64,000 bases of DNA, taken from Octopus vulgaris. Lineage: Eukaryota. The DNA lies in NCBI GenBank assembly GCA_951406725.2, contig OX597814.1, forward strand, positions 150,288,001 through 150,352,000. The letters are read 5' to 3'. Shown piece after piece: positions 154-63,956 of the stretch. Below the pieces are notes generated by a model that saw only the letters and a program-made list of their open reading frames with translations, was not told the origin of the DNA and searched no databases. The first letter of the stretch is position 1. Every line of letters starts with the position of its first letter. The position numbers were made by a program, and so were the translations under genes.

Positions 154-228
<75 letters not shown>

Positions 229-320
229 TAATCCAAACAAGAAAACACAGAAAAAAACACAGCAACACGAGGACGTGGAACAATTAAAGTATTATTTGAC
301 GCTCAGGGAAGAAGATGCAT

Positions 321-369
<49 letters not shown>

Positions 370-508
370 GATCAATAAATGGTGGGGTTGTGTTGACCGC
401 ACGTGGAGAAATGATAAGTAAGGAAAAATTTTTTTAAAAATGCAGAATGCTCAAATGAAAGAAAATTTTAATAAAATGAGAAATTGATAAAATATATAAA
501 TATATATT

Positions 509-549
509 TATTCAACCGGTTTTCGTCATTGTACGACTTGTCAAGAATA
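509..549 (-). ncRNA. Hammerhead-like motif, left-arm copy
   Basis: Reverse complement is TATTC-TTGACAA-GTCGT/ACA/ATGAC-GAAA-ACCGGT-T-GAATA. It differs from the right arm only by A-U to G-U in stem II. Confidence 0.75.
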
Positions 550-1176
550 TTTATGTTTTAAAAAGTTTTTTTTTAAATTAGAAAGGGGAAAAAAAGAAAA
601 TTGCATTGTTTTTTGTAAAAGAATAATGATAAAAATGTACAAAAATTAAAAATAAGTTCTCCGATACATTGTGAGTTCGTTGTGTATCTTGAGTTTTATG
701 GTTGTTTACGAAAAAATTACCTTGAGGTGTTAAGATCCAAAGGGATTAAGAGCATGTGTTGTGTTGTTAAATTCAGCATGTTTGCAGGACAGGAAGTAGT
801 AGTAATTGTGGTCCTGGTTCTTCAGTTCCTGTGTTGTGAGTAAGGGGAGACAACTCTTTTGAGTTCTTCAATAAAACCCAAATTATAAAATTATCATTTT
901 AGCTTCATTTGCGTTATCTTTTTTATATAATTGCTTGTTAACTTAACTTTCAGATTTTAACACTTTATTTATATTATTTTCTAATTATATAAATCTGCAT
1001 AGACAATTGCATTTCAAATTGTCATATCATTTATAATAAAAATGATAGTAATAACAACAATAGTAAAAATGATACTTAAAGAATATAAGTTTTAGCTTGA
1101 AGTGATGAATGCATGGTATCTTTAAATATTTGTGTTAGTCCATCCATGAAGAGTGAGGTAGAGAAAGGAAGTTTGA

Positions 1177-3309
1177 TCAACGAGGAGTTTGCATATTAAG
1201 TTGTGTTTGGAATTTTTCAATAAAGAGATTCTCCTTGTTAATTCTCTCCTGTGTGGTGATCCCGTCTTTACATTGGTAGAAGGGGAATATATAGAATTTG
1301 GGGTTTAAGTCTTTAGCACATGAGTCTAAGTGGTCACTCAGTGGAATTTGTCGGTATTCCGGGAGATTTATTTGTTCTTTATGCACCGTTACTCGTTTAC
1401 GTAACGGGAGACTCGTTTGTCCAACATAATTATGTTGGCAACCAGCGCATGTGAGAACGTAGATAAGGTTCTCGGAGGAACAGGAGAAGTTAGTCTTGAT
1501 TTTAAACTTCGTACCTTGTTTGAAGGTAAATTCAGAGCCTTCAAGTAGAAAGGGGCAGGTACCACAGTTTGAGCGTGCACATTTTTTTACTGTTGGGGGT
1601 GGATGTGGTGTGTGAAGTTTGGCAGGCATTTGTCAAGAGTTTTTTTAAAGATTTGTGTTGCCTTTTGCATTTGAGGATTTTGTGTGTATTTATAATGTTT
1701 TTCATTTTTGGGTCTGTTGACAGTAAACTGAGGTTTTGTATGATTGTGGTGTATGCTTCGATATTTTTGGGGTTGTGGGTGGAAATGTATGGAAGTATTT
1801 TGAGGTTGTGTGTGGTGTTAGGTTGGGTGGTTTTCAGTGTAGTGTTGTCTAGTTCTTTGGCGCGTTTTATTCCATACTCTATAAGGGTGGAGGGATATTG
1901 ACGTTGTAATAGTGTTTTTTTGAGGTCTTGAAGGCGTATTTCTCGTGTTTTTGGATCCGAGACAATGGTGCATACCCTTTTAGCTAAATTGAAAGGGATA
2001 TTTGTCTTGGTGTGTTTTGGGTGGCATGAACTAAAGAGGAGGTATTGTTGTGAGTCTGTAGGTTTGTGGTAGATGTCTGTTATGATTTGGTTCTTAGGTG
2101 TTTTTATAATTAGGAGATCAAGGAATGGGAGATGATGTTTGCTTAATTCCATAGTGAATTGGATGTTGGGATGTATGTTGTTTAGTATGGTTTTGAATTC
2201 CAGGAGTTTTTCATAAGGTTCTTTCCATATGATGAAACAATCATCTAAATACCTTTTCCAGTTTTCCATTAGGTAGGTGTGGAAAACATGTCCAAATTTC
2301 TGGCTTGATATTTCATAGAGTGACAGTTCGAAGTAACCCATTATGAGGTTCGCAAGGACTGGTGCAGCCTTGGTACCCATCGCAATGCCACATTTTTGAC
2401 GGTAGTGTGTGTCGTCGAAGAGAAAAAAATTGTTTGTCAGAATGAACTTGAGAGATTCTGTAATAAAAGACTTGTTAATGCGGTCAGGGAATATCTCTGG
2501 GTGTTTTTCTAGCCAGAAGTCAATTGCCTCTATACCATACTCATGTGGAATGTTGGTGTAGAGGTTGATGACATCAAAGGATACCAGGAGTGCCTCCTCG
2601 TTAACTGTTTTCGGGAGGTGTTTGAGCATGTCCAGATCATCCCTAATGAAACTTTTGATGTGGGTAAGGAAAGGTTTCAAAAGGATGTCTAGGAAGTTAC
2701 TCAGGCGGTGTGTTTCACAGGAGGTACCAGCCACGATGGGCCTTAGTTTTAGGTCCTCCGGTGCTTTGATGTTGATGTGGATGTCAGTGGAGAGTTTGCA
2801 GGCTTCGGTGATGTATTTGTTTTTATGGATTTTAGGAAGGCCATAAAAAGGCTGGGCTTGCATTTGAAAATGGTGATATAATCCCTTTCTTTTTCTGTGA
2901 GTCCCTGACCGTGTTGGCGTATGAGTGTGGTGAGGTTTCTGATTGTTTTTTGCTGTTTGTAGTTGTTAATAACCTCATAGAAAATGTTATTGTTAAGCAT
3001 GGAAAACACTAGGTGTTTATAAAATTCCGTGTCCATAAGGACCACAGCACTCCCTTTGTCCGCTTCTTTGATGGTGAGGTTTTTATCCAGTTGTATGTCA
3101 CGTAGGTTTTCCCATTCTTCCTTACTGAAATTGGATTTTACCTTGGTTTTGCTTGGGGTAAAGGGGAGACTCTGGATGTGTTTGCAGAAATCGTCCAGTG
3201 TTTTATTTCTCCCTTTTGGTGGTAGGAAGTTGCTTTTATTTCTGATCAATGAATCGTCCCCATTGTTGATATCTGTCAAAGCTTCTGTTAGGCGAAGTTT
3301 TCTGCAGAA
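1177..3309 (-). pseudogene. Inverted, 5'-truncated copy of the PLE RT/GIY-YIG coding region
   Basis: ORFs 2749-3324, 1541-2863 and 1177-1629 give the same peptides as the + copy. It has an extra 1-nt homopolymer deletion near 2845 and shares the TGCC duplication. Confidence 0.92.
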
Positions 3310-4371
3310 ATGCTCAAAAACCAAAACAAAGCTGAAATTTACGACAAATGGTTAAACTCCTCCCCTATCATACTACCCCGAAAATTCCAAATCAAACACA
3401 TCCCAGACGAACCTGAAAAACAACGCTCCCTAAGAGAAAAACTAACATTGGAAAAAATGAAAACCGAAGTAGAACTTCTAAAACTCAGAGCACAAAACCA
3501 CGAACAAAAATACACAAAAATAGACGATGAGATACTTCTAGAACTAACCTCACACACCAACGAACAGCCCCTCGAACTTGTTATTAAACTATGGAAAGAT
3601 GAATGTGAAAAGGAAGAACGAACCTCCCTTAAACGCTGGGAAAACAACAAAGATTTCTTCCTCAACTATGAAACACAATTCATATTAAACCATAAATCCA
3701 AAAACCCATTCATGAAAGTACCCACAACACAGACTTCCACTGTACCCCATAAACACCATTCCAAACCGCACCTCAAATACACATACTCTCCAAACCCCCT
3801 CCTAACAGGACACAACCTCCCCCAACCATATAAAAAACCTTTTCCCACCCGAAACATCTCAAACAAGACCCACCACAAAACCTGGTTTTCCAATCACTCT
3901 AACACCCCTCTCCCACCGATTAGAACCTTCAAGAACCTCCCATACACTAGAAATTATCCCCCCCTCAAGGCTCCCCTCCCTCACACTAATAACAAACAAG
4001 GCATCCTACCCACACCGATACATATAATACCCACCCAACGAACCCCCTATAGTCCACCCATCCAACAACCACATTCCTACCACATCTCCTACAGATCTCC
4101 AAACCCTCACATCCCACACGAACCCAATCACCACAACTACTTACCCCCATACAATCTACCAGACACACACCCACAAACCCATCGCATTTCTCACAAATCC
4201 TTACACCATCGCATCCCATACCAACACAAATACGACAACTACCTACCCCCCTCCAACCTCCCCACCCAAAAACACTCCTACACATACAACCAGAACTTTA
4301 ACAAAGAATACACCCCTTACCTCAACAACCATTTTTTAGACAGAGGGGAAAAATACAAACACCACCGCTAA
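3310..4371 (+). CDS. PLE upstream ORF1, probably 5'-truncated: helical/coiled-coil-like N-terminal half and P/H/T/N-rich low-complexity C-terminal half
   Basis: 353-aa open frame with a charged amphipathic segment (REKLTLEKMKTEVELLKLRAQNHEQKY). The ATG lies immediately after the inversion junction, and the ORF overlaps the start of the RT frame. Confidence 0.7.
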   Translation: MLKNQNKAEIYDKWLNSSPIILPRKFQIKHIPDEPEKQRSLREKLTLEKMKTEVELLKLRAQNHEQKYTKIDDEILLELTSHTNEQPLELVIKLWKDECEKEERTSLKRWENNKDFFLNYETQFILNHKSKNPFMKVPTTQTSTVPHKHHSKPHLKYTYSPNPLLTGHNLPQPYKKPFPTRNISNKTHHKTWFSNHSNTPLPPIRTFKNLPYTRNYPPLKAPLPHTNNKQGILPTPIHIIPTQRTPYSPPIQQPHSYHISYRSPNPHIPHEPNHHNYLPPYNLPDTHPQTHRISHKSLHHRIPYQHKYDNYLPPSNLPTQKHSYTYNQNFNKEYTPYLNNHFLDRGEKYKHHR

Positions 4372-6653
4372 CACAGACCCAAAATAAGAAAACAAAAATT
4401 ATAAACCTCTCCAGCAAAACACTGACACTAACCCAAATCAACATCCTAGCAAGAGGTTTGAAATTCACACCCACCCCAAGAACACCCAACCCCCGGAGGT
4501 CAAGGATGACGTTTCTGAATTCTGCAGAAAACTTCGCCTAACAGAAGCTTTGACAGATATCAACAATGGGGACGATTCATTGATCAGAAATAAAAGCAAC
4601 TTCCTACCACCAAAAGGGAGAAATAAAACACTGGACGATTTCTGCAAACACATCCAGAGTCTCCCCTTTACCCCAAGCAAAACCAAGGTAAAATCCAATT
4701 TCAGTAAGGAAGAATGGGAAAACCTACGTGACATACAACTGGATAAAAACCTCACCATCAAAGAAGCGGACAAAGGGAGTGCTGTGGTCCTTATGGACAC
4801 GGAATTTTATAAACACCTAGTGTTTTCCATGCTTAACAATAACATTTTCTATGAGGTTATTAACAACTACAAACAGCAAAAAACAATCAGAAACCTCACC
4901 ACACTCATACGCCAACACGGTCAGGGACTCACAGAAAAAGAAAGGGATTATATCACCATTTTCAAATGCAAGCCCAGCCTTTTTTATGGCCTTCCTAAAA
5001 TCCATAAAAACAAATACATCACCGAAGCCTGCAAACTCTCCACTGACATCCACATCAACATCAAAGCACCGGAGGACCTAAAACTAAGGCCCATCGTGGC
5101 TGGTACCTCCTGTGAAACACACCGCCTGAGTAACTTCCTAGACATCCTTTTGAAACCTTTCCTTACCCACATCAAAAGTTTCATTAGGGATGATCTGGAC
5201 ATGCTCAAACACCTCCCGAAAACAGTTAACGAGGAGGCACTCCTGGTATCCTTTGATGTCATCAACCTCTACACCAACATTCCACATGAGTATGGTATAG
5301 AGGCAATTGACTTCTGGCTAGAAAAACACCCAGAGATATTCCCTGACCGCATTAACAAGTCTTTTATTACAGAATCTCTCAAGTTCATTCTGACAAACAA
5401 TTTTTTTCTCTTCGACGACACACACTACCGTCAAAAATGTGGCATTGCGATGGGTACCAAGGCTGCACCAGTCCTTGCGAACCTCATAATGGGTTACTTC
5501 GAACTGTCACTCTATGAAATATCAAGCCAGAAATTTGGACATGTTTTCCACACCTACCTAATGGAAAACTGGAAAAGGTATTTAGATGATTGTTTCATCA
5601 TATGGAAAGAACCTTATGAAAAACTCCTGGAATTCAAAACCATACTAAACAACATACATCCCAACATCCAATTCACTATGGAATTAAGCAAACATCATCT
5701 CCCATTCCTTGATCTCCTAATTATAAAAACACCTAAGAACCAAATCATAACAGACATCTACCACAAACCTACAGACTCACAACAATACCTCCTCTTTAGT
5801 TCATGCCACCCAAAACACACCAAGACAAATATCCCTTTCAATTTAGCTAAAAGGGTATGCACCATTGTCTCGGATCCAAAAACACGAGAAATACGCCTTC
5901 AAGACCTCAAAAAAACACTATTACAACGTCAATATCCCTCCACCCTTATAGAGTATGGAATAAAACGCGCCAAAGAACTAGACAACACTACACTGAAAAC
6001 CACCCAACCTAACACCACACACAACCTCAAAATACTTCCATACATTTCCACCCACAACCCCAAAAATATCGAAGCATACACCACAATCATACAAAACCTC
6101 AGTTTACTGTCAACAGACCCAAAAATGAAAAACATTATAAATACACACAAAATCCTCAAATGCAAAAGGCAACACAAATCTTTAAAAAAACTCTTGACAA
6201 ATGCCTGCCAAACTTCACACACCACATCCACCCCCAACAGTAAAAAAATGTGCACGCTCAAACTGTGGTACCTGCCCCTTTCTACTTGAAGGCTCTGAAT
6301 TTACCTTCAAACAAGGTACGAAGTTTAAAATCAAGACTAACTTCTCCTGTTCCTCCGAGAACCTTATCTACGTTCTCACATGCGCTGGTTGCCAACATAA
6401 TTATGTTGGACAAACGAGTCTCCCGTTACGTAAACGAGTAACGGTGCATAAAGAACAAATAAATCTCCCGGAATACCGACAAATTCCACTGAGTGACCAC
6501 TTAGACTCATGTGCTAAAGACTTAAACCCCAAATTCTATATATTCCCCTTCTACCAATGTAAAGACGGGATCACCACACAGGAGAGAATTAACAAGGAGA
6601 ATCTCTTTATTGAAAAATTCCAAACACAACTTAATATGCAAACTCCTCGTTGA
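4338..6653 (+). pseudogene. PLE reverse transcriptase plus GIY-YIG endonuclease, broken by two frameshifts (~4490 C-run; TGCC duplication at ~6202-6209)
   Basis: PLE N-terminal motif IINLSSKTLT..LARGLKFTPTP (4398-4478). RT motifs YGLPKIHK, LRPIV, SFDVINLYTNI, GIAMGT, RYLDD, LPFLD, YHKPT. Cys linker KKCARSNCGTC. Endonuclease NLIYVLTC..C..NYVGQT..LRKRVTVH..RINKE. Confidence 0.93.
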
Positions 6654-7281
6654 TCAAACTTCCTTTCTCTACCTCACTCTTCATGGATGGACTAACACAA
6701 ATATTTAAAGATACCATGCATTCATCACTTCAAGCTAAAACTTATATTCTTTAAGTATCATTTTTACTATTGTTGTTATTACTATCATTTTTATTATAAA
6801 TGATATGACAATTTGAAATGCAATTGTCTATGCAGATTTATATAATTAGAAAATAATATAAATAAAGTGTTAAAATCTGAAAGTTAAGTTAACAAGCAAT
6901 TATATAAAAAAGATAACGCAAATGAAGCTAAAATGATAATTTTATAATTTGGGTTTTATTGAAGAACTCAAAAGAGTTGTCTCCCCTTACTCACAACACA
7001 GTAACTGAAGAACCAGGACCACAATTACTACTACTTCCTGTCCTGCAAACATGCTGAATTTAACAACACAACACATGCTCTTAATCCCTTTGGATCTTAA
7101 CACCTCAAGGTAATTTTTTCGTAAACAACCATAAAACTCAAGATACACAACGAACTCACAATGTATCGGGGAACTTATTTTTTAATTTTTGTACATTTTT
7201 ATCATTATTCTTTTACAAAAAACAATGCAATTTTCTTTTTTTCCCCTTTCTAATTTAAAAAAAAACTTTTTAAAACATAAA

Positions 7282-7322
7282 TATTCTTGACAAGTCATAC
7301 AATGACGAAAACCGGTTGAATA
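7282..7322 (+). ncRNA. Minimal type I hammerhead-like motif (U3-A8 variant) in the PLE 3' region
   Basis: TATTC-TTGACAA-GTCAT/ACA/ATGAC-GAAA-ACCGGT-T-GAATA: stem I, variant core, stem II, GAAA and a palindromic stem III, with one extra A relative to the usual core. Confidence 0.75.
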
Positions 7323-7411
7323 AATATATATTTATATATTTTATCAATTTCTCATTTTATTAAAATTTTCTTTCATTTGAGCATTCTGCATTTTAAAAAA
7401 AATTTTTTCCT

Positions 7412-7458
<47 letters not shown>

Positions 7459-7705
7459 TAAATATGTATGTGTGTATGTATCTGTGTGTTTGTGATAGTC
7501 CCCCCAATATCACTTGATAACCGATGTTGGTCCGTTTACGTCCCCGTAACTTAGCGATTCGGCCAAAGAAACCGATAGAACAAGTACTAGGCTTACAAAG
7601 AATAAGTCCTGGTGTCCATTTGTTCGACTAAAGGCGGTACTCCAGCATGGCCGCAGTCAAATGACTGAAACAAGTAAAAGAATAAAAGAATAAAATAATA
7701 AATGA

Positions 7706-7766
<61 letters not shown>

Positions 7767-8172: not shown

Positions 8173-8292
8173 CGGAACCTCTCTCTCTGTATTCATATTG
8201 TTTGTATATATATATATATATATGACCTCGTGAGTACCGCTGGCGATTTTTTCCCTCTGTCTGCCCTTCTCGGGATCTTTCCTTCTCCTATG

Positions 8293-8325
8293 TTTCCGAC
8301 GAAGAGCTCCGCTCGAAACGTTAAA
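8293..8325 (+). ncRNA. Degenerate minimal hammerhead motif in a small (TA)n-flanked element (8223-8433)
   Basis: TTT-CCGACGA-A-GAGC/TCC/GCTC-GAAA-CG-TT-AAA. The downstream sequence also occurs inverted at ~224-312 and resembles 26908-27035. Confidence 0.55.
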
Positions 8326-8462
8326 TCCTCCTTCTTCCCTTCTTTCCTGAGCGTCCAATAATACTTTATTTGTTCCACGTCCTCGCGTTGTTGTGTTTTT
8401 TTGTTTTTTTGTGTTTTCTTGTTTGGATTAACTATATATATATGTATGTATGTATATGTATG

Positions 8463-16144: not shown

Positions 16145-17428
16145 ATGCAGGGTACGGTGAATATATTCTAGTCTAAATTACGCAAACATGAAATAACATT
16201 GACATCTCATTTTAAGAGATATTATATTTAACAAAAACACATAAAAATATCTTGAAATATTAAAGAGTAAATTTATTCAATAAAATCGTCATTGACGTCA
16301 ACCATGACTTCCAGACGACTTCGGCATCTCCTGCAACTCTTCTGGACGGTCTCCTTGTTTAAGTCGGTGAATGCTGCCATAATCCTTGCCTTCAGTTCAT
16401 CTTTGGTGTTACAAGGAGTTTTGATGGTTCCTCGCTCAACTGCGCCCCCCACACAATAATCGAGGGGGCTTACACTCTGGCGAGTCAGGTGGCCAGATGT
16501 TAGGAGTAATGTGGTTGCAGAAATTGTCTGACAACCATGACTGAGTTCTCCTGCTTGTGTGGCATGCTGCAGAATCCTGTTGCAAGACATATGCTCTTTC
16601 AGTAGCCACTCTCTTGACCCAGTGAACCACTACCTCTTCCAGAAACATGATATAAGCCTCCGTGTTAAGTGTGAGGCCGTGTGGAAAGATGAATGGGGGC
16701 ATAAGATACGCCATCCCTCGTCATCACACCGAACACCATGATGCTGATTGGATGTTTGATTTTTATCACTGTCGGTACATACAGGCCAATGTTTGTTCTG
16801 TGAGTTCCGCATCTGATCCTGGCAGAAAATTTCTTGTCTGAGAAAAACGAAAGCATGATCGGTTGGAGGAAATGCTTAAGTTTGTTCAAAAGCTTCATAG
16901 CGCGGTCTATCCTCTTGTCCTTGATGGCTTGGGATAAAAGTTGGCCCTTCCTCACCTTGTATGAGGCATACCAAATGTCTTCATACACAACCTGACTGAT
17001 AACAAACTCAGACCTTCCTATGTCTCTGGTGATGGACCTGATTGACTTGGAGGGAATGTTGTCAATCATACCCTGGATCTCACCAACAAATTCAGTTCTT
17101 TTCTTATCATAATGAGTTTTCCGGGCTACCGTACCTGCGTAATCACTATTAGACCCATCCAACTCTTTCCTAATCCTCTACACTGTCCTCAGTTTGACAC
17201 CCAATCACTCTAAACTGATCGTATTGGAATATGGCGCGAATGCCAAGCAGTTCAGCATGTCGTTTACCTATTCCTGGTAGAGTGAATTGCATCATAGTGC
17301 TGTTTTTCTCACAGGTGGTTCCCAACTGACCTAACTATACTGTGTAGTCAACAAAATCAAAAACAAACAATGCTCATGCACGAAATCAAAAATATAAAAT
17401 GGCGACAATTTACCCATCGCATCCTGTA
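16145..17428 (-). mobile_element. Degenerate Tc1/mariner-superfamily DD37D (maT-like) transposon
   Basis: Frameshifted transposase with FFSDK, IMVFGV and QQDSAACH...IWPPDSPECKP/LDY. About 37 residues separate the second and third Asp. The terminus is AAAATGGCGACAATTTACCCATCGCATCCTGTA. Confidence 0.85.
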
Positions 17429-21009: not shown

Positions 21010-21252
21010 GAAGGTTTGGAGATGATGTACAGGTATTATATATTAGAAAAATTGAGGTAATCAGATCAGATGGTTCATATTTGTAGATATTTATTTATAT
21101 ATTACATTTTTTACATATATATCATATCATTTGGATTAGCGCTTGCTCCCATTCTAGTGGGTTTTCAAATCAAATCAGTTGTGGGTAGTTTGAACCTTTT
21201 TATAGTTTCGTAGTAGTGGGTGAGGAGGAAGTGAGACAGAGAGAAAATATGT

Positions 21253-21324
<72 letters not shown>

Positions 21325-22210
21325 ATTTATATCTGAGAGTGAAGAAGTGTTATTTCCGTTGGTCTGCTGGACCCCCTGTGGTTTTATAAGAACTTTGGCT
21401 GTCCATTTCAATGTCACTGAGTGTGTGTTGTGCATAGGTTGGCCTGGCAAATGTCATTTGGGGTCACACTTTCTATGATCATTCTGTGGAGGTGTGTGTG
21501 TGTGTGTGTCTCTGTGTGTCTGTGTGTGTTTTTGTGTGCGTGTGTGTGTGTGTGTGTGTGTATGTGTGTGTGTGTGTGTCTGTGTGTTTGGAGAAGGGGA
21601 GAGAGACAAAAAGAGAAAAGGGAAAATAAAAATAATAATAATAAAAATAAAAAATTAAAGTGTGTATATATATGTGTTGGTATAAATATCAACACACAAA
21701 AATATTTTTTCTTCTCCACTTCCTCCCTTATTTTTATATTTATTTTTATTTTTATTTTTTTATTTTTTATTCTTTATATATTTTTATTTATTCTTTATAT
21801 TTTTTTATTTTATTTTTTATTTTTTATTTTTTGTTTTTATTTTATTTTATTTATTTTTTTTATTTTTTAATTTTTTATTTTTATTATTATTATTTTTATT
21901 TTCCCTTTTCTCTTTTTGTCTCTCTCCCCTTCTCCAAACACACAGACACACACACACACACATACACACACACACACACACACACGCACACAAAAACACA
22001 CACAGACACACAGAGACACACACACACACACACCTCCACAGAATGATCATAGAAAGTGTGACCCCAAATGACATTTGCCAGGCCAACCTATGCACAACAC
22101 ACACTCAGTGACATTGAAATGGACAGCCAAAGTTCTTATAAAACCACAGGGGGTCCAGCAGACCAACGGAAATAACGCTTCTTCACTCTCAGATATAAAT
22201 GCGCACACAC

Positions 22211-22262
<52 letters not shown>

Positions 22263-22471
22263 CATACACACATATTTTCTCTCTGTCTCACTTCCTCCTC
22301 ACCCACTACTACGAAACTATAAAAAGGTTCAAACTACCCACAACTGATTTGATTTGAAAACCCACTAGAATGGGAGCAAGCGCTAATCCAAATGATATGA
22401 TATATATGTAAAAAATGTAATATATAAATAAATATCTACAAATATGAACCATCTGATCTGATTACCTCAAT

Positions 22472-22482
<11 letters not shown>
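21007..22482. mobile_element. Foldback element: tail ~21007-21037, inverted arms ~21038-21658 and ~21867-22482, T-rich spacer; degenerate hammerhead-like motif at 22351-22388 (+) and 21134-21171 (-)
   Basis: The arms are near-identical reverse complements (mirror ORFs in the track), flanked by (TA)n. The motif is GAT-TTGAAAA-CCCA/CTAGAA/TGGG-AGCA-AGCGCT-A-ATC. Confidence 0.75.
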
Positions 22483-22529
<47 letters not shown>

Positions 22530-22943: not shown

Positions 22944-24238
22944 TACCAGGCCATCCTATAAGTTCTGTCCGAATTTTGAATAAATAAAACAAGTGATCAA
23001 ATGTTATATTTAATTGAAATTTAATCCTCAATGCACTCTCCCTGATTATCTAGAACTTCCTTCCATCTATTTACATGCTTTTTAGCCCAATCAATGTAAA
23101 ACTCTTTTGATTTCAAAGCGAAGAACTCTGAAATATCAGTTTCGACCTCCCCCTGGCTTGCGAAAGTTATATCCCCCAATGGTTCTGTAAACTACGAAAC
23201 AAATGGTAGTCTTAAGGTAGTCAAATGGTAGTCTTAAGCAAGGTCGGAAGAATAAGGTGGATGAGGAATTTTTTCCCAACCAAGCTCTTCGATCTTCTGT
23301 GATGTGATCTTTGCGGTGTGGGGTCGCGCATTGTCCTGATGAAACATCTCTCCTTTTCGATTCACTAAAGCGGGTCTTTTTTCTTCAAAGCTTGGTTTAA
23401 ACGCTCTAATTGCTGACAGTAGACTTGAGCATTAATTGTTGCATTAAGTGGAAAGAATTCATAGTGAATTACTCCTTTGCAATACCCCCAGATAGAGGGA
23501 AGAACCTTTTACCCATGAAGTTCTGTTTTTGGTTGTGGTTGAGCTTTTTCCCTTTTACCACGTTTAACATTTCGATAGAAGATACATTATTTATCACCTG
23601 TCACAAGTCTATCCAAAAAATGAAATGATTTCGCGAGAATAGAGAGAAGAGCAGATGTCAACTCGGGATTTGCGGTTGCTTTCGGACAATTCATGAGGCA
23701 CCCATTTTTCAAGTTTAGGAACCTTTCCAAGTTGTTGAAGATGACGATGAACTGTTGTATGGTTTGAACTAAGCTTTATTGTCAATTCTTCAACTGATAA
23801 TGCAGGATTTTCTTCAAGTAATGCCTCAAGGAGCATATGATCAAACTCAACTGGACGTCCTGTTCGATCTTCATCTTCAAGCCTGAAATCTTCACTTTTG
23901 AATTTTGCAAAACATCTTCTGTAAGTTCTTTCATTCAAGCATTCTTTCCCATAAACTGAGTGTGTTTCGAGTCGCTTCGGCTGCAGAGTTTCCTTTTTGT
24001 ACTCATAAAGCATTATATGCCTCAAAATGCTCTTTGGATACTTCCATGTTAGAAAGGGTTTTAATCAAAGAGATTTTAATTCTATTATTCTGTAAAATAA
24101 TGTTTAATTAGTTCAAATGTACGCAAATGCATAAAAATAATTTTTATTTCTGTTAGACATTCTAAAATACTATTAAATTTCGTTCAATTTTAAAAAAAAA
24201 AAGGTAAAATAGGACAGAACTTATGGGATGACCTGATA
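22944..24238 (-). mobile_element. Full-length degenerate mariner (DD34D-type) element
   Basis: TIRs are TACCAGGCCATCCTATAAGTTCTGTCC and GGACAGAACTTATGGGATGACCTGATA. The transposase remnant has an HTH region, WVPHEL and HQDNARPH. Confidence 0.9.
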
Positions 24239-24516
24239 GAGGGAATCGAGGGTACGTTTTGTACAATACATTGACGACTAGTTCTGGCATTTGTATGACA
24301 CTCATGCTGAAATCAGGTTTTAGCCCTTCTAGAGTTTTCCATATACTCTTTTACTCTCTTTTACTTGTTTCAGTCATTTGACTGCGGCCATGCTAGAGCA
24401 TCGCCTTTAATCGAGCAACTCGACTCCGAGACTTATTCTTTTGTAAGCCGAGTACTTATTCTATCGGTCTCTTTTGCTGAACCGCTAAGTAACGTGGATA
24501 TAAACACATCAGAGAG

Positions 24517-24519
<3 letters not shown>

Positions 24520-24562
<43 letters not shown>

Positions 24563-25183
24563 CTGTATAGTATATTTGTATATATATATATACTTATATA
24601 TGTGTGTGTGTGTGTGTGTTGTGTGTGTGTATCCTCGGCACTCTGTCGCCATGTAGACACTTGATTTGCTAAAGACAGTACCTAAATCCATCTACACCAC
24701 ACCTCCATGTCTTAAAAATAGAAAGGCATTGATTAGTTGTAACTTAGATGTATAAGACAGGTTGGTAGGATGGGAAAAATCGAAATGCCTTTGATTATAT
24801 CATTGGCAAAACCAATGACAACTGAATGTAAAGCAAACGCAAGCAACATTGAAGACGTGCTAATGAATGAACCGCTGCTTGGTCGGTCGGCTAGCAAGAA
24901 ATAGCAGTCAAATCTTGCTCTCAGCTTATCATCTTCTTGGATAGATTTCTTAGCTAATGCAGTAAAGACGTACGTCTGAAAATAAGAAGAGAAATCGCAG
25001 GTGGAATACCAATTACAATTGTCTGTGCCTCTAGAGATTAATTAACAATTGTAACAATGCCATCAAAAGCACAACAGTAACAACGCTAATGATCGAGACA
25101 ATCTGTAATGGTTAATCTACCCGCTAAAAATAACAGCCAACTCTCTTTTAGATCACTCTAATGAAAGAATATCTTTATGTATG

Positions 25184-25248
<65 letters not shown>

Positions 25249-25342
25249 AAACAAGTCAAAAATAGAAAATGCTAAGATAATTTTATAGTGAATCTTTCAG
25301 TACCGGTTTCGGTCATTTTGAGACCTTTTCAACTGTAACGAT

Positions 25343-25406
<64 letters not shown>

Positions 25407-25655
25407 TATAATTAATCTCTGAGTGAGCTATATACCGTAGCTGCACGATATCGTGAAGTATATTTGCCACCTAAATGTGGCTAGCCCTTAAGGGTTGATG
25501 CTACTGTAGCTTGTAGCTCCAGGAAAACATCTCCAGCTGGTTATTGACACACTATGTATGTCCTATCAGTATTTGCAAAGGGAAGAAATCGTTCCCATCT
25601 CCAGCCTGACGGGCTACACACGGACCCGAGTTTCTGTATATATGTATATATGTGT

Positions 25656-25709
<54 letters not shown>

Positions 25710-26323
25710 ATAGTATATTTGTATATATATATATATACATATATATGTGTGTGTGTGTGTGTGTTGTGTGTGTGTATCCTCGGTACTCTGTCGCCTTGTA
25801 GACACTTGATTTGCTAAAGACAGTACCTAAATCCATCTACACCACACCTCCATGTCTTAAAAATAGAAAGGCATTGGTTAGTTGTAACTTAGATGTATAA
25901 GACAGGTTGGTAGGTTGGGAAAAATCGAAATGCCTTTGATTATATCATTGGCAAAACCAATGACAACTGAATGTAAAGCAAACGCAAGCAACATTGAAGA
26001 CGTGCTAATGAATGAACCGCTGCTTGGTCGCTCGGCTAGCAAGAAATAGCAGTCAAATCTTGCTCTCAGCTTATCATCTTCTTGGATAGATTTCTTGGCT
26101 AATGCAGTAAGACGTAGGTCTGAAACTAAGAAGAGAAATCGCATGTGGAATACCAATTACAATTGTCTGTGCCTCTAGAGATTAAACAACAATTGTAACA
26201 ATGCCATCAAAAGCACAACAGTAACAACGCTAGTGATCGAGACAATCTGTACTGGTTGATCTACCCGCTAGAAATAACAGGCAACTCTCTTTTAGATCAC
26301 TCTAATGAAAGAATATCTTCATG

Positions 26324-26384
<61 letters not shown>

Positions 26385-26385
26385 G

Positions 26386-26435
<50 letters not shown>

Positions 26436-26675
26436 CATACATATATATAATTAATCTCTGAGTGACCTATATACCGTAGCTACACGATATCGTGAAGTAT
26501 ATTTGCCACCTAAATGTGGCTAGCCCTTAAGGGTTGATGCTACTGTAGCTTGTAGCTCCAGGAAGACATCTTCAGTTGGCTATTGACACACTATATATGT
26601 CCTATCAGTACTTGCAAAGGGAAGAAATCGTTCCCATCTCCAGCCTGACGTGCTACACACGGACCCGAGTTTCTG
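24520..26675. repeat. Local tandem duplication of ~1.1 kb (~24520-25640 and ~25650-26675)
   Basis: Colinear, highly similar sequence, for example GACACTTGATTTGCTAAAGACAGTACCTAAATCCATCTACACC at ~24656 and 25801. Confidence 0.9.
25291..25343 (-). ncRNA. Minimal type I hammerhead (U3-A8 variant)
   Basis: Reverse complement is CAG-TTGAAAA-GGTC/TCAAAAT/GACC-GAAA-CCGG-TA-CTG, with outer AATC/GATT pairing. Confidence 0.8.
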
Positions 26676-26873
26676 GGTATTCACCAGTCATCAACTCGGT
26701 TCCGTGTGTACCACGTCAGGCTGGAGATAGGAACGTTGACTTCTTTGGCAAATACTGATAGGGCACAGATGGTGTGTCAGTAGCCAGCTGGAGGAGATGT
26801 CTTTCTGGGGCTACAAGTTACAGTAGCATCAACCTTTAAGGGTTAGCCACATTTAGGTGGCAAATATACTTCA

Positions 26874-26880
<7 letters not shown>
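26450..26880. mobile_element. Foldback element: tail 26450-26486, diverged inverted arms ~26487-26671 and ~26693-26879
   Basis: ATATCGTGAAGTATATTTGCCACCTAAATGTGGCTA... pairs with ...TAGCCACATTTAGGTGGCAAATATACTTCACGATAT. (TA)n lies on both sides. Confidence 0.8.
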
Positions 26881-26907
<27 letters not shown>

Positions 26908-27035
26908 CGGGAAGCTTTATGAAAATAGACAAAAGACGAAGGCAGGTTTACGGAAATAAACAAAAGACGAAGGCAGGTGGAATACAAACAAACAATTGTA
27001 TTAGTATGGCGCTCAGGAAATATAAATAAAACAAG

Positions 27036-27073
27036 TCTTTAACGTTTCGAGCCTACGCTTTTCAACAGAAAGA
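27036..27073 (-). ncRNA. Minimal hammerhead-like motif (CUGUUGA core)
   Basis: Reverse complement is TCTTT-CTGTTGA-AAAGC/GTAG/GCTC-GAAA-CG-TT-AAAGA, with a perfect 5-bp stem I. Confidence 0.6.
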
Positions 27074-27359
27074 TACACAGAGAAGAAACACAGAAAGAAG
27101 GAGAGAAAAAAAATGCGTGCAGAGGCTAGCGAATCAACATGGCGATCTGATTTCGGCCAGAAGTCAAAGATCAAACGTGAGACGCAAGAGCAAAATTAGG
27201 GGAGATAATAGGGTTAAATGACCTCGCTCCAACATAAGAGTGTGTGTGTGTGTGTATGAGAGAGTATTAGTGCGTATGAGAGGTCTGGACGTGTGTATGT
27301 ATATATGATGTGATGTGTAAAGTCGTATGGTGTAGTGTAGAGAGAGGAGATGAGTGAAG

Positions 27360-28135: not shown

Positions 28136-29425
28136 TACGATGGGTAAATTGTCGCCATTTTATATTTTTAATCTTGCGCATGAGCATTGTTTAGTTTTGC
28201 TTTTGTCGGCTGCACAGTATAGTAGAGTCAGTTAGGCACCGTCTGCGAGAAAAAACAGCACCATTACGCAATTCGCTCTGTCGGAGATTTGGAAACGTCA
28301 TTCTGTACTGCTTGGCATTCGCGCCGGAAGCTCGAATACGAACATTCCTGAGTGTTTGGGTGTCAATTTGAAGACAGTGCAGAGGGTTCAGAAAGAGCTG
28401 GATGTGTCTAATGGTCATTATACAGGTACGCAGCTCGGAAAACTCACTCTGATCGTCCTGAGAAGAAAAGAACTCCTGAATTTGTTGATGTGATCGAGGC
28501 CTTGATTGACAACGATACTTCCAAGTCAAGCAGGTCCATCGCCAGGGACATGGGAGTGTCTAAGTTTGTTATCATTTAGGTAGTGCATGAAGACATTCAG
28601 TATTCTTCATACAAGGTGAGAAAGGGCCAATTTTTTTCCCAAGCCATCAAGGACAAGAGGAAAGACCACACTACAAATCTTTTGAACAGACTCAAGCATC
28701 CCCTCCAACTGAACATGCTTTCGTTTTTCTCAGACAAGAAACATTTCTGCCAGGATCAGATGCTGAACGCACAGAACAACCGTTGGCGTCCCGTGTTCCG
28801 AAAACATGTACGGAGAGCGATAAAAATCAAGCATCCAGTCAACATCATGGTGTTTGGTTTGCTCACTAGTGATGGTGACGTAATGACTCCATTCATCTTC
28901 CCATACAGCCTCACACCCAACACGGAGGCCTATATCAAGTGACTGGAGAAGCTAGTGCGACCCAAGGTCATGAGGGTGGCTGCTGTAAGACCCTATGTCT
29001 AGCAACAGGGTTATTGCACCATGCCACACAAGCAGGATAACCCAATCATGCCTGTCAGAGAATTTCTGCGACCACATCACCCCTAACATCTGGTCACCTA
29101 AGTCGCCAGTCTGTAACCCCACCTTGATTATTAGGTGTGGGGAGCAGTTGAGGGAGAGACCAACAAAACTCCTTGTAACACCAAAGATGAACTGAAGGCA
29201 AGGATTATGGCAGCATTCACCAACTTAAACAAGGAGACCGCCCAGAAGAGTGGCAGAAGATTTCGAAGTCGACTTGCGATTTTATTGAATATATCAACTC
29301 TTTAGTATTTCAAGATACTTTTATGTCATTTTGTTAAATATACCTCTTAAAATGGGATGAATATTTTATTTTCATTTTTGCGTAATTTAGACGAAGTTTG
29401 ACAATTGTGCTGCAACACCAGCCGT
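28136..29425 (+). mobile_element. Second degenerate copy of the DD37D/maT-like transposon
   Basis: It has the same terminus (CGATGGGTAAATTGTCGCCATTTT) and colinear transposase remnants (FFSDKK, NIMVFG, HITPNIWSPKSP). Confidence 0.85.
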
Positions 29426-29895: not shown

Positions 29896-30826
29896 CATAT
29901 ATAAGTATGTATGTGTGTATGTATGTATCTGTGTTTCTGTTTGTCCACCCAACATTACTTGACAACTGATGTTGATGTGTTTACGTCCCTGTAACATAGC
30001 GGTTTGGCAAAAAGAGACGATAGAATAAGTTCTAGGCATACAAAGAATAATTCCTGGGGTCGATTTGTTCGACTAAAGGCGGAGTTCCACCATGGCCGCA
30101 GTCATATGACTGAAACAAATAAAAGAATATAAATATATATATATATGTATATATATGAATGTGTGTGTGTGTGTATAAAAGATATTCAGATAATCAATAT
30201 CTTGCTAATCACACTCAGAAATTTCCAGTCAAATACTGAGATTTATCTGCGGAAACAAAATCAAATTGAATGTGTTGATTAAGTAAGGCTGTATATAATA
30301 AATTATCTATCAAGTAGTTGTGAAACTCAAATATTAATTAAATGATATTATTAAATTTGTATTTATAAAACATATCAATATTCGTAAAAAAACCCAATTT
30401 ATTGCTATATTTTTGTGAAAAAAGAATGAATAACGGATATAATTTAAGATCAAATTAAATTAGAAAGAAGAAATATTGTTATATGTAAACAAAAATATGA
30501 TAAATTTAAGATAAGCGCTCACGCACACATAGGTATATTAATATATATATTTATGTATGCAGACTTGAACACACACAAACTCACTTACGCAAACACATGC
30601 ACACAAATTTACCCTTAAATGAGAAAATGTCTAACAATTGGTAAATTCTTATTATCTCTGCGTGTGTGTGTAATTGTGCATACGAGTGTGTGTTTGTGAG
30701 AGCCAGAGAGAGAGAGTGAGAGAAAAATTGAGCATGTGTGGGTTGGAATATGTGTGTGTATATATCTACGTGTTTAAATTATACATGTAAGAAAGGGTGG
30801 TGTATATATAATAACAATAATACGTG

Positions 30827-32994: not shown

Positions 32995-33070
<76 letters not shown>

Positions 33071-33559
33071 TATGCTTATATTAACATCTGATTTCCACTT
33101 AGTACGCTCGTATACGTATGTGTACGTAAATTACATTTACAAGTAGGTGCACGAACAAAGTAACGAGAACGGAATGCATCTAATAAAATAAATATATAAT
33201 CGTTAAATCTTTTAACTTTTCCATTACTTTACGTTTCACGTCGGAGAGACATTCTTCAGCTGGAATATCACCAAAGAATGTTTTCCAAAAAGGAAATTTG
33301 TGCTGCTGGTCTGTTTTGTGATATCGCATATTATAAACTTAAAGTTAGCGGAATTAGTTTCTATTTCGGTGTTGTAATATACAAGGTAGACCATATCAAA
33401 GTAGTAGTGTTTTGACAATATCTTCTACATTTTGTTTTAAATTATGGCTTAATGATCACTGCCATGTGTTTCTAATTTCGATATCCCTACAGATCATCAC
33501 TACGGGTCACCTTGGGTAGACGTATTCCACAACAGCTCCGGGTACTGATGATGTACAAG

Positions 33560-37268: not shown

Positions 37269-37677
37269 TATATATTCAGATACATTTTTGGTTATTTTTA
37301 GTTATTTAGGATTCATAACGAATCGAGTCATATCAACTTGTAGAGCGCCACCGATTGGTTAGACAGAATTACGTCACTTAGCGGTTCGGAAAAACAGACC
37401 AATAGAATAAGTACTGGGCTTACAAAGAATAAGTCCCGGGGTCGATTTGCTCTACTAAAGGCGGTGCTCCAGCATGGCCGCAGTCAAATGACTGAAACAA
37501 GTAAAAGAGTAAAGAGTAAAAGAGTAAAGTAGTGTGGAGCGACTGACCTCCCTTGTTCGAAGGTTATATGGATACAGTTTGTGTATCAAATAGCTAACTT
37601 AAGGCGATGGCCTCATGGAGCTAATAAGCGGACAGCTTTATTCTTGTTTTTATAAGAGTGCCATATTGGTATGGCGA

Positions 37678-43455: not shown

Positions 43456-44316
43456 ACATGGTCTGATCAATAAGTATCCGGACAGTTGCCATAGTAACGA
43501 AGCTAAAGGACGCAGAGGGAAGTCACTTGACACAGATTGACCTTGAAACCCTGCTGTGCATGCGCACAGTTTTAACGTTCTATCCAGCTTCCGCTGTTTA
43601 CAGCAGTGCTTGGAAGGAACGTGTGTAGCGTGTGATCGTTGCACTGGTCATGAATCTGCATCCAATTTAGCCAAAAGCTTGGCGATACCTGCTCAGCAGC
43701 CTACTCAAAGTTGCAGAAAGTATATGGAGAGGAGTGTGTGAGCCGAAAACATGTCAATAGCGACGAACATTTTGGGAGGCCTGCAAGCAACAGAATTGAG
43801 AAAAACGTCGTAGATGCGCGAGCAGCTGTGAGGAGAAATCGTCGAATCACCATCCATGAGTTATTAGAGGATGTGCAGATTAGTTACGGTTCAGTTCAGT
43901 TCATTATCACGAAAAATTTGCGTACGAGACGTGTGTCTGCCAAGTTTGTGTCAAATCTGCTATCAGCTGTCATTGTACCCACCCATTCAGCGCAGCAGTT
44001 TTTGGCTAAACACAGCATTCCCTAGGTCCGACAGCCACCGTATTGCCCAGATCTCACCTCTTGCGACTTTTTCCTCTTACCAAAAATCAAATCCCGCTTG
44101 AAAGGAAGAAGGTTTTAGGACGTCGAGGAAATCAAAGTGATCGCGACGAGCCAGCTGCTGATTATCCCCGAAAACGAATTCCAGTAACGCTTCCATCAAT
44201 GGAAACAGCGCTAGATTAAGTGTGTGGCTTCCGAAGGAGATTAAATGTCAAATTGGTACGTGCTGTAGTTTTGTTTTTATAGCCCTAGACCGGACACTTA
44301 TTGATCAGGTCTCGTA
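43456..44316 (+). mobile_element. Internally deleted mariner element of the same family as 9547-10414
   Basis: TIRs are TACATGGTCTGATCAATAAGTATCCGG and CCGGACACTTATTGATCAGGTCTCGTA. Remnants include RRVSAKFV and QPPYCPDLTSCDFFLLPKIKSRLKGRRF (YSPDLAPCD-like). Confidence 0.88.
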
Positions 44317-56182: not shown

Positions 56183-56400
56183 TTGTGTGTCTGTGTTTGT
56201 CCCCTAGCATCGCTTGACAACCGATGCTGGTGTGTTTACGTCCCCATCACTTAGCGGTTCGGCAAAAAAGAGACCGATAGAATAAGTACTGGGCTTACAA
56301 AGAATAAGTCCCGGGGTCGAGTTGCTCGATTAAAGGCGGTGCTCCAGCATGGCCGCAGTCAAATGACTGAAACAAGTAATAGAGAAAAAGAGCAAAAGAG
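55942..56400 (+). mobile_element. tRNA/CORE-like SINE (family A) with an internal (TA)n tract and a LINE-like 3' tail
   Basis: The head is GGCGCAGGAGTGGCTGTGTGGTAAG...GGTTCAGTCCC...CTTGGGCAAGTG and the tail is GGCGGTGCTCCAGCATGGCCGCAGTCAAATGACTGAAACAAGTAA. Confidence 0.85.
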
Positions 56401-56489
56401 AATATATGTGTATGCGCATGTACATAGGTACACATGGAGACATGTATGTATGTGAATGTGTGTGTATGTGAGTGTATGTGTAGATGTAT

Positions 56490-62979: not shown

Positions 62980-63368
62980 AGGCGCAGGAGTGACTGTTTG
63001 GTAAGTAGCTTGCTTAAGAACCACATGGTTCCGGGTTCACTCCCACTGCGTGGCACCTTGGGTAAGTGTCATCTACTATAGCCTCGAGTCGACCAAAGCC
63101 TTGTGAGTGGATTTGGTAGACTGAAACTGAAAGAAGCTCGTCATATATATGTACATATATATGTATGTGTCTGTGTTTGTCATCGCTTGACAACTGACGC
63201 TGGTGTGTTTACGTATCCGTAACACTAGCGCTTCGGCAAAAGAGACCGATAGAATAAGTAGTAGGCTTCCAAAGAATAAGTCCTGGGAGCGATTTGCTCG
63301 ACTAAAGGCGGTGCTCCAGCATGGCCACAGTCAAATGACTGAAACAAGTAAAAGAGTAAAAGAGTAAA
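62980..63368 (+). mobile_element. SINE family A copy
   Basis: Colinear with 55942-56400. Confidence 0.85.
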
Positions 63369-63956
63369 TGACTGATATAATTTCAATTAACGCTAGGCAA
63401 TTTCGGAGATGTTTCGTTAGTATTACAACCCCATTAGTTGAAGATAGACAGAAACGTACAATTGTTTGGAAATATTCATAAAAATAATCATATTTTACCT
63501 GAAATAGGCATTTCTTCGTCGTTATTGTAGTAAACGTCGTCGCTCTCACCATCAGCACAATCTTTCGTCATTTGGAAGGCTGTTTGATATAGACTCAAGG
63601 AAACAAAAGACGTCATTACACTTTGAGCATATTTATGACTTTCAGACCAGGTGTATTTCTATAGAATTTAATTACGTTTCTTCCAGCATATTTATATATA
63701 CAGCAATATAAATGTAGTATGGCAAAAAGGTTTTTAAAATTAATAGTAATCTCATTATATTTTATACATTTCTTGCTAGCTAATTTTTAAACTTGTTCTC
63801 AATTTCCTGCAAAAGCCATTTTGCTTAACTTGTATCCTTCATTATTTTGGAAAATCTTTGAACGGTACAGTTTATCACCAGGAAATGTGTTGAACTGCAT
63901 AACTTACCCCTCCTGGAAAACAGTATTTTGCTCCGTTAAAGCAAACACACACATTT

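What the first reader, a model, noticed from the sequence alone, without database searches (positions are those of the whole stretch)
25244..25347. ~100-bp hammerhead cassette present in only one copy of a tandem duplication
Seen: duplicate 1 has (TA)n-[GAAAAAACAAGTC...HHR...GATTAAA]-(TA)n, while the matching site in duplicate 2 (~26325-26450) is microsatellite only. The cassette is essentially an intact U3-A8 HHR plus a ~45-nt 3' extension, loosely resembling the PLE end (AGAAAATGCTAAGAT versus GCAGAATGCTCAAAT). Inference: a filled/empty pair showing a near-minimal ribozyme-plus-tail mobile unit.
Basis: partly seen in the sequence, partly recalled or inferred. Interest (0 to 1): 0.72.

Follow-up and report, generated by a model that had tools for sequence, protein, structure and literature searches.

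The report
Truncated Penelope end in TA microsatellite
The 100-base insert is real and carries a known variant of a predicted self-cutting RNA motif, but other copies of the family run on past its start, so it is most likely the broken-off tail end of an abundant Penelope-type jumping gene rather than a tiny mobile unit of its own.

Summary
Observation confirmed. Duplicate 1 holds a 103-104-bp insert inside (TA)n; duplicate 2 (3.4% diverged) has microsatellite only. The minus strand carries a type I minimal hammerhead with U3-A8 core and palindromic helix III (2 of 10,000 shuffles match). The family is multi-copy in 6 of the 7 runs laid. The 'minimal unit' reading fails: in 4 of 4 runs other copies continue past the 5' boundary into one shared sequence, and contigs entering TA there have depth 195 or 0. 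That continuation matches the 3' non-coding region of a Neptune-like Penelope element in this window (23 of 27; 0 of 5,000 shuffles). Best reading: a 5'-truncated 3' end of a Penelope-like element, or of its longer non-coding derivative, inserted after the duplication. U3-A8 cores, solo motifs, tails and microsatellite targeting are published. The scan noted similar U3-A8 remnants elsewhere in this genome. One lead remains: some copies carry an internal (AT)4 exactly at the 3' junction, which could pair with the TA target during priming.

The parts
25245..25348 (-). The insert: 5'-truncated 3' end of a high-copy hammerhead-bearing repeat; the last three bases (25346-25348) fit both the family's longer form and the TA tract
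25301..25332 (-). Type I minimal hammerhead core: U3-A8 variant, 4-bp helix II with G10.1-C11.1, GAAA, palindromic ACCGGU helix III, predicted cut after A17 at 25301
   Evidence: Rfam HH9 E 0.018, below gathering
25290..25343 (-). Helix I with extension (25333-25343 pairs with 25290-25300), predicted in the local fold
   Evidence: local MFE -9.3 kcal/mol, not better than shuffles
25245..25300 (-). 56 nt downstream of the predicted cut, ending at the 3' junction with (TA)n
   Evidence: sequence
25176..25244 (.). TA tract at the 3' junction; its 8 bases next to the insert (25237-25244) are also present as an internal (AT)4 in longer family members
   Evidence: loose ends before 25237 in 3 of 4 runs
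25346..25410 (.). TA tract at the 5' junction
26324..26449 (.). Empty paralogous site: 126-bp microsatellite in duplicate 2
24519..25636 (+). Duplicate 1 of the tandem duplication
25637..26675 (+). Duplicate 2 of the tandem duplication
370..7414 (+). Neighbouring Neptune-like Penelope element (sibling family, not the parent): RT and GIY-YIG in different frames, CX4CxxC linker, inverted 5'-truncated copy, U3-A8 hammerheads at 7287-7317 (+) and 514-544 (-), about 48-bp tail at 370-417 on one end only, both ends in (TA)n
7172..7198 (+). Stretch of the neighbour's 3' non-coding region that matches the sequence found upstream of the cassette in longer family members (23 of 27)

Best explanation
The insert sits in duplicate 1 only and is a short piece of a longer, multi-copy hammerhead-bearing repeat; it is most likely the 5'-truncated 3' end (pseudo-LTR) of a Neptune-type Penelope-like element, probably pasted into the TA microsatellite after the duplication. 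Shown: the filled/empty pair, the hammerhead motif, many copies, and shared sequence beyond both ends in other copies. Inferred from published Penelope biology: the element's GIY-YIG endonuclease nicks AT-rich DNA; its reverse transcriptase starts inside the RNA, here about 56-64 nt downstream of the hammerhead cut site; synthesis stops after about 100 nt; and the cDNA end joins the TA tract through a 3-base overlap. The lone hammerhead is a passenger. With a palindromic helix III it would need a second copy or the element's protein to cut, and this copy would not move again by itself.
For: (1) Multi-copy: summed contig depth in the cassette bin is 201,078 / 303,608 / 309,992 / 83,827 against 31.4 / 38.2 / 38.2 / 4.43 in unique flank (4 of 4 runs). 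One 61-nt identical contig has depth 579 in a run where other listed pieces have 3-14. Summed depth is not a copy number; hundreds to thousands is my rough reading. (2) The 5' end is not fixed: a shared AT-rich continuation lies behind 25348 in 16, 4, 1 and 1 contigs of the 4 runs; depth at 25350-25354 is 195, 0, 0, 0 against about 4e5 inside the cassette in the first run. (3) 27 letters of that continuation match the neighbour element's 3' non-coding region at 7172-7198 with 4 mismatches (0 of 200 shuffled windows, 0 of 5,000 shuffled 3' regions). The whole cassette also aligns to the neighbour's 3' end better than all 2,000 shuffles, mostly through the hammerhead. (4) The neighbour shows the same layout: U3-A8 core, ACCGGU helix III, 97 nt to the end, (TA)n at both ends, optional tail. 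Its CX2-5CxxC linker is also in 112 of the 120 listed homologues. (5) At the 3' side, some copies run into longer TA and others carry (AT)4 plus a shared extension, as expected for the optional tail. (6) Two contigs from one run together match 25235-25348 with no difference. The chance of no change in 103 nt if the insert were as old as the duplication is about 0.18, a mild argument for later insertion. (7) Papers: PMC4209133 (U3-A8 variant, mostly single motifs, probably truncated PLEs), PMC11167929 (internal initiation, tail, AT-rich nicking, protein-assisted ribozyme not needed for insertion in vitro), PMC8557442 (microsatellite bias, linker), PMC3846280 (5' junction by microhomology, solo pLTRs).
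Against: No contig or locus links the cassette family to an RT open reading frame. No genome was available and the loose ends are at most 30 letters. The neighbour is only about 69% alike over 75 nt, so it is a sibling and not the parent. The 27-letter match is in AT-rich sequence and lies about 90-115 nt upstream of the neighbour's core but only about 20-45 nt upstream of this one. The runs laid hold at most half of the region's words and may be other individuals or species. Contigs with TA junctions may be filtered out, which would understate fixed 5' junctions. No target-site duplication can be read inside (TA)n. No outgroup allele was seen across the site, because contigs break at the TA tracts.
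Confidence: 0.62

Rival explanations
1. Same insertion chemistry, but the parent is a longer non-coding retrozyme (a non-autonomous, Penelope-derived monomer of a few hundred bases, tandem or circular), of which this is a partial copy.
For: Shared unique sequence continues beyond both ends, as it would round a circle or tandem unit. Animal retrozymes are reported to derive from pLTRs, with consensus lengths of 51-972 bp and solo monomers (bioRxiv 10.64898/2026.07.22.740005), so the 27-letter match does not exclude this. Unchecked scan notes describe 358-364-nt U3-A8 families in this genome.
Against: No second unit or second hammerhead at this locus. Look-ups by sequence found no look-alike among the scan's notes. 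PMC7229834 places canonical hammerheads in retrozyme repeats and minimal ones in PLEs. No joint suggesting a circle was listed, but the stretch laid was too short to show one.
Confidence: 0.25
2. One reading: a dedicated ~100-bp ribozyme-plus-tail mini-element with fixed ends, mobilised in trans.
For: The 5' boundary falls just outside extended helix I, so the whole ribozyme is kept. The family is multi-copy. One run has some depth (92-195) across the 5' TA junction.
Against: That depth is under 0.1% of the depth inside the cassette and is 0 in the other three runs, while all four runs show the longer form. A lone minimal hammerhead did not cleave as a monomer in PMC4209133.
Confidence: 0.07
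3. The insert was there before the duplication and was lost from duplicate 2 by slippage or recombination between the TA tracts, or the two duplicates are alleles placed in tandem by the assembly. This concerns direction only, not identity.
For: Each of 4 runs gave one listed contig for 24637-25167, and several unique bins of duplicate 2 had no depth. Duplicate 2's tract (126 bp) is about the sum of duplicate 1's two tracts (134 bp) and has an interruption in the middle.
Against: The insert is identical to contigs of other copies although the duplicates differ by 3.4%. Contig assemblers can merge near-identical duplicates (own knowledge). The duplication joint is a novel one, in the middle of a palindromic repeat.
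Confidence: 0.15

Closest known systems
Minimal type I hammerheads of metazoan Penelope-like elements, U3-A8 variant of Schistosoma mansoni Cercyon (Cervera and De la Pena 2014, PMC4209133; parts 1-2 of 4 read)
   Same: U3-A8 core, G10.1-C11.1, small palindromic helix III, found mostly as single motifs thought to be truncated PLEs
   Different: Helix II is 4 bp rather than 7-8 and there is no extra base between positions 9 and 10.1; different family and host
Endonuclease-positive PLE insertions with 5' truncation and optional 30-40-bp tail; Neptune clade microsatellite bias (PMC8557442, PMC3846280, PMC8969392; passages read)
   Same: Fixed 3' end, variable 5' end, optional extension, insertion in a dinucleotide repeat, microhomology at the 5' joint
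   Different: Parent reading frame not found; no inverted partner copy at this site
PAc Poseidon element of the green anole (Frangieh et al. 2024, PMC11167929; parts 1-2 of 4 read)
   Same: Insert ends a few tens of bases downstream of the hammerhead cut site, as internal initiation predicts; AT-rich target
   Different: [quoted passage not shown]
Animal non-LTR retrozymes (PMC7229834, passages; bioRxiv 10.64898/2026.07.22.740005, part 1 of 5 and passages)
   Same: Non-coding, type I hammerhead, Penelope-related, solo copies exist
   Different: Defined by tandem units with two or more hammerheads and circular RNA; this locus has one partial unit

Membership tests
Type I minimal hammerhead | Core U/C3-U-G-A-N-A/G8-A ... 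GAAA ... UH in order | tested here: met
   U3-A8 variant core, GAAA, U16.1-A17
Type I minimal hammerhead | Helices I and II can form, with G10.1-C11.1 | tested here: met
   Local MFE forms both; the full 103-nt MFE prefers another fold, and energies are not better than shuffles
Type I minimal hammerhead | Short palindromic helix III for dimer formation | tested here: met
   ACCGGU
Type I minimal hammerhead | [quoted passage not shown] | tested here: not met
   A9 is followed directly by G10.1; a common trait in PMC4209133, not part of its descriptor
Type I minimal hammerhead | Rfam gathering score | tested here: not met
   22.9 bits against 52 for Hammerhead_HH9
Type I minimal hammerhead | Self-cleavage | not testable with these tools
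   Needs an in vitro assay
EN+ Penelope-like element (Neptune type) | RT plus C-terminal GIY-YIG frame joined to this family | not testable with these tools
   No genome held; pattern scans of metagenome and viral contigs found 0; present only in the sibling element
EN+ Penelope-like element (Neptune type) | Hammerhead near the 3' end, with homology to a PLE 3' region | tested here: met
   whole cassette 0 of 2,000 shuffles; upstream 27-mer 0 of 5,000
EN+ Penelope-like element (Neptune type) | 5' truncation | tested here: met
   Longer form in 4 of 4 runs
EN+ Penelope-like element (Neptune type) | Optional 30-40-bp 3' tail | tested here: inconclusive
   Shared extension before 25237 in 6, 1 and 1 contigs of 3 runs; its length and end are not visible
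EN+ Penelope-like element (Neptune type) | Insertion in microsatellite | tested here: met
EN+ Penelope-like element (Neptune type) | Target-site duplication | tested here: inconclusive
   Cannot be read inside (TA)n
Non-LTR retrozyme | Tandem units with two or more hammerheads | tested here: not met
   One motif at this locus; other loci of the family not seen
Non-LTR retrozyme | Circular RNA monomer | not testable with these tools
   Only contigs, and RNA status is a guess
   Depth 195/0/0/0 past the boundary in TA; common continuation in 4 of 4 runs

The most novel reading that the evidence does not exclude
This family targets (TA)n by base pairing: an internal (AU)4 in its RNA, 56-64 nt downstream of the hammerhead cut site, anneals to the nicked TA microsatellite and sets the start of reverse transcription. 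That would be homology-assisted internal priming, unlike the non-homologous initiation reported for the one Penelope element studied in vitro, and would offer a sequence-level cause for microsatellite targeting. For: shared (AT)4 plus extension in 3 of 4 runs. Against: the sibling element in this window lands in (TA)n with only a 1-base overlap at its short end, and the extension could be flanking DNA of an insertion that was later amplified. I did not see this described in five literature searches, which cover open-access papers only.
Probability: 0.25. Interest if true: 0.5.

Novelty: new member of a known kind. Interest (0 to 1): 0.22.

Why it matters
As it stands it is a clean, young example of a known process: a Penelope-like 3' fragment in a TA microsatellite, with an internal empty-site control. 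It is useful as a junction example for how these elements prime and stop. It would matter more if the internal (AT)4 proves to set the 3' junction across the family, because why many Penelope-like elements favour microsatellites is still only a hypothesis in the papers read, and this would be directly testable with the published in vitro assay.

Tried and rejected
No whole genome is held, so no genome-wide BLAST and no copy count. Exact-pattern scans for the hammerhead found 0 stretches in metagenome contigs and 0 in viral contigs. Relatives of the neighbour's RT: 8 distant loci in metagenome contigs (29-42% identity) and none of 35 candidate stretches in genome contigs. A descriptor scan of the 8 loci gave one hit, inside a coding match and on the opposite strand, taken as chance. 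No RNA holder is listed; two runs guessed to be RNA hold the family, which is not evidence of expression. No other copy of the cassette lies in the window. Selection on the core could not be shown: only 7 of 123 positions vary at 3% or more, so the quiet core does not stand out; one common change (25311) keeps a G-U pair in helix II and a rare one hits position 17. A splice-acceptor-like CAG lies just 5' of the core, as in the Drosophila virilis element described in PMC4209133; noted by eye, not tested. Presence or absence in other individuals could not be read, because contigs break at the TA tracts. Supplements of the papers were not opened; an octopus repeat library (PMC13282606, passages read; no mention of ribozymes in its main text) may already hold this family.

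Full report
Observation. The window has a tandem duplication, about 24519-25636 and 25637-26675, whose unique parts differ at 26 of 771 columns. In duplicate 1 a 103-104-bp insert (25245 to 25346-25348) splits a TA microsatellite into tracts of 69 and 65 bp. In duplicate 2 the same site is a 126-bp microsatellite. On the minus strand the insert holds a type I hammerhead: U3-A8 core at 25332-25326, 4-bp helix II, GAAA, palindromic ACCGGU helix III, predicted cut after 25301, and a 3-bp helix I with an extension. The descriptor matched 2 of 10,000 shuffles of the cassette and gave 0.033 hits per shuffled window; it was written with the motif in view. Rfam gives a weak Hammerhead_HH9 match, E 0.018, below gathering. 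The local fold forms helices I and II, the full 103-nt fold does not, and neither energy beats shuffles.

Copy number. No genome was held, so I used public runs. In 4 of 4 runs the cassette bin had summed depth 84,000-310,000 against 4-38 in unique flank. In a second set, which shares one run with the first, 409, 144, 22 and 3 contigs were laid on the cassette, over a range of likeness; the run with 3 contigs does not by itself show many copies. Summed depth counts overlapping contigs many times, so it is no copy number; hundreds to thousands is my inference.

Boundaries. At the 5' end of the RNA sense (25348), 16, 4, 1 and 1 contigs in the 4 runs continue into one shared AT-rich sequence. Depth inside the TA beyond 25350 is 195 in one run and 0 in three, against about 400,000 inside the cassette in that run (24 further loose-end rows were not shown, and a few shown rows have other continuations). 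The family is therefore longer than the cassette, and this copy stops early, with three bases shared between element and target. TA-rich junction contigs may be under-represented, which weakens this somewhat. At the 3' end, some contigs run on into at least 10 bases of TA, while 6, 1 and 1 contigs in 3 of 4 runs carry only (AT)4 and then a shared unique extension.

Family. The window also holds a Penelope-like element at 370-7414: RT (Pfam E 7e-08) and GIY-YIG (E 0.00017, just under its cut-off) in different frames, an inverted 5'-truncated copy, and a CX4CxxC linker. Linkers of that form occur in 112 of the 120 listed homologues; PMC8557442 ties this linker to Neptune elements, and a zinc-finger-like linker to Neptune and Nematis. 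I built no tree, so 'Neptune-like' rests on the motif. Both its ends lie in (TA)n, one with a tail of about 48 bp, and each has a U3-A8 hammerhead with ACCGGU. It is only about 69% alike to the cassette over 75 nt, so it is a sibling. The whole cassette aligns to its 3' end better than all 2,000 shuffles and the hammerhead part better than all but 4. The sequence found upstream of the cassette in longer copies matches the sibling's 3' non-coding region at 7172-7198 at 23 of 27 positions, the only such match in the window apart from its inverted copy, with 0 of 200 shuffled windows and 0 of 5,000 shuffled 3' regions reaching it. One of two motifs tried gave this match; the 3' extension motif had no match in the window. 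The host is probably an octopus: one named homologue is from Octopus bimaculoides (57% identity) and the scan's unchecked notes say so; this is inference.

Mechanism. Shown: filled and empty site, motif, many copies, longer form. Inferred from papers: PMC11167929 (parts 1-2 of 4 read) reports AT-rich nicking, reverse transcription starting inside the RNA downstream of the hammerhead, the tail as the span between two start sites, and a ribozyme that cut only with protein and was not needed for insertion. PMC4209133 (parts 1-2 of 4) reports the U3-A8 variant, about 1,300 mostly single motifs in Schistosoma, and no cleavage by a single minimal motif. PMC8557442, PMC3846280 and PMC8969392 (passages) report 5' truncation, optional tails, microsatellite bias, solo pLTRs and a microhomology 5' joint. 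The insert fits each: 3' end 56-64 nt past the cut site, stop after about 100 nt, TA target. I put 0.62 on an autonomous Penelope-like parent, 0.25 on a longer non-coding retrozyme parent using the same enzymes (PMC7229834, passages; bioRxiv 10.64898/2026.07.22.740005, part 1 of 5 and passages), and 0.07 on a fixed-end 100-bp unit. No sequence links the family to a reading frame, so the first two are not separated.

Direction. Two contigs of one run match 25235-25348 without a difference. One continues into the longer form, so it is not this locus. If the insert were as old as the duplication, no change would be expected with probability about 0.18. That mildly favours insertion after duplication. 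Against certainty: no outgroup allele spans the site, and each of 4 runs gave one listed contig for the unique flank, sharing some letters with duplicate 2, so the duplication may be private, merged in contigs, or an assembly of two alleles. I give loss or artefact 0.15.

Novelty. Every main feature is in print, and the scan's own notes record similar U3-A8 remnants in (TA)n elsewhere in this genome (unchecked, and no look-alike by sequence). This is a new member of a known kind. The one lead is the internal (AT)4 at the 3' junction, which would let the RNA pair with the target, unlike the non-homologous start reported for PAc. It rests on 8 short contigs in 3 runs, and the sibling element does without such an overlap. 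I give it 0.25. Five searches (listings seen, seven papers opened in part, no supplements) did not show it described. Interest 0.22.

Noticed in passing
window 370-7414: Near-complete Neptune-like Penelope element with a 2.9-kb almost identical inverted copy, U3-A8 hammerheads at both ends, a tail on one end only and (TA)n on both sides; apparently young.
   Followed up: partly
window 26907-27075 (-): Fragment abutting (TA)n with a hairpin-GAAA-CG-UU half core and a CUGAG box downstream, plus a 31-bp direct repeat; resembles the rearranged hammerheads in other scan notes.
   Followed up: no
window 224-320, 8223-8345, 33068-33275: Further short fragments next to (TA)n with hammerhead-like half cores or CUGA boxes.
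   Followed up: no
window 26450-26876 and 25411-25636: High-copy palindromic, MITE-like repeat; two arms in duplicate 2, cut near its middle at the duplication joint in duplicate 1.
   Followed up: no
window 24637-25167: Each of 4 runs gave a single listed contig here, sharing duplicate-2 letters at 25042-25043 and 25089; the duplication may be private or merged.
   Followed up: partly
window 21037-22485: Near-perfect inverted repeat (396 nt at 99% and 224 nt at 100%) round a T-rich spacer.
   Followed up: no
window 25333-25348 (-): Splice-acceptor-like CAG directly 5' of the hammerhead core, after a T-rich stretch, as described for the Drosophila virilis element.
   Followed up: no
window 7565-7719, 24300-24510, 30010-30164, 37392-37546, 56267-56421, 63239-63393: Copies of a very abundant short repeat (family D19); SINE-like by my recall, not tested.
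   Followed up: no
window 16665-17177, 23609-24064, 28580-28942, 43654-44025: Decayed open frames that look like Tc1/mariner transposase pieces by eye; not scanned.
   Followed up: no
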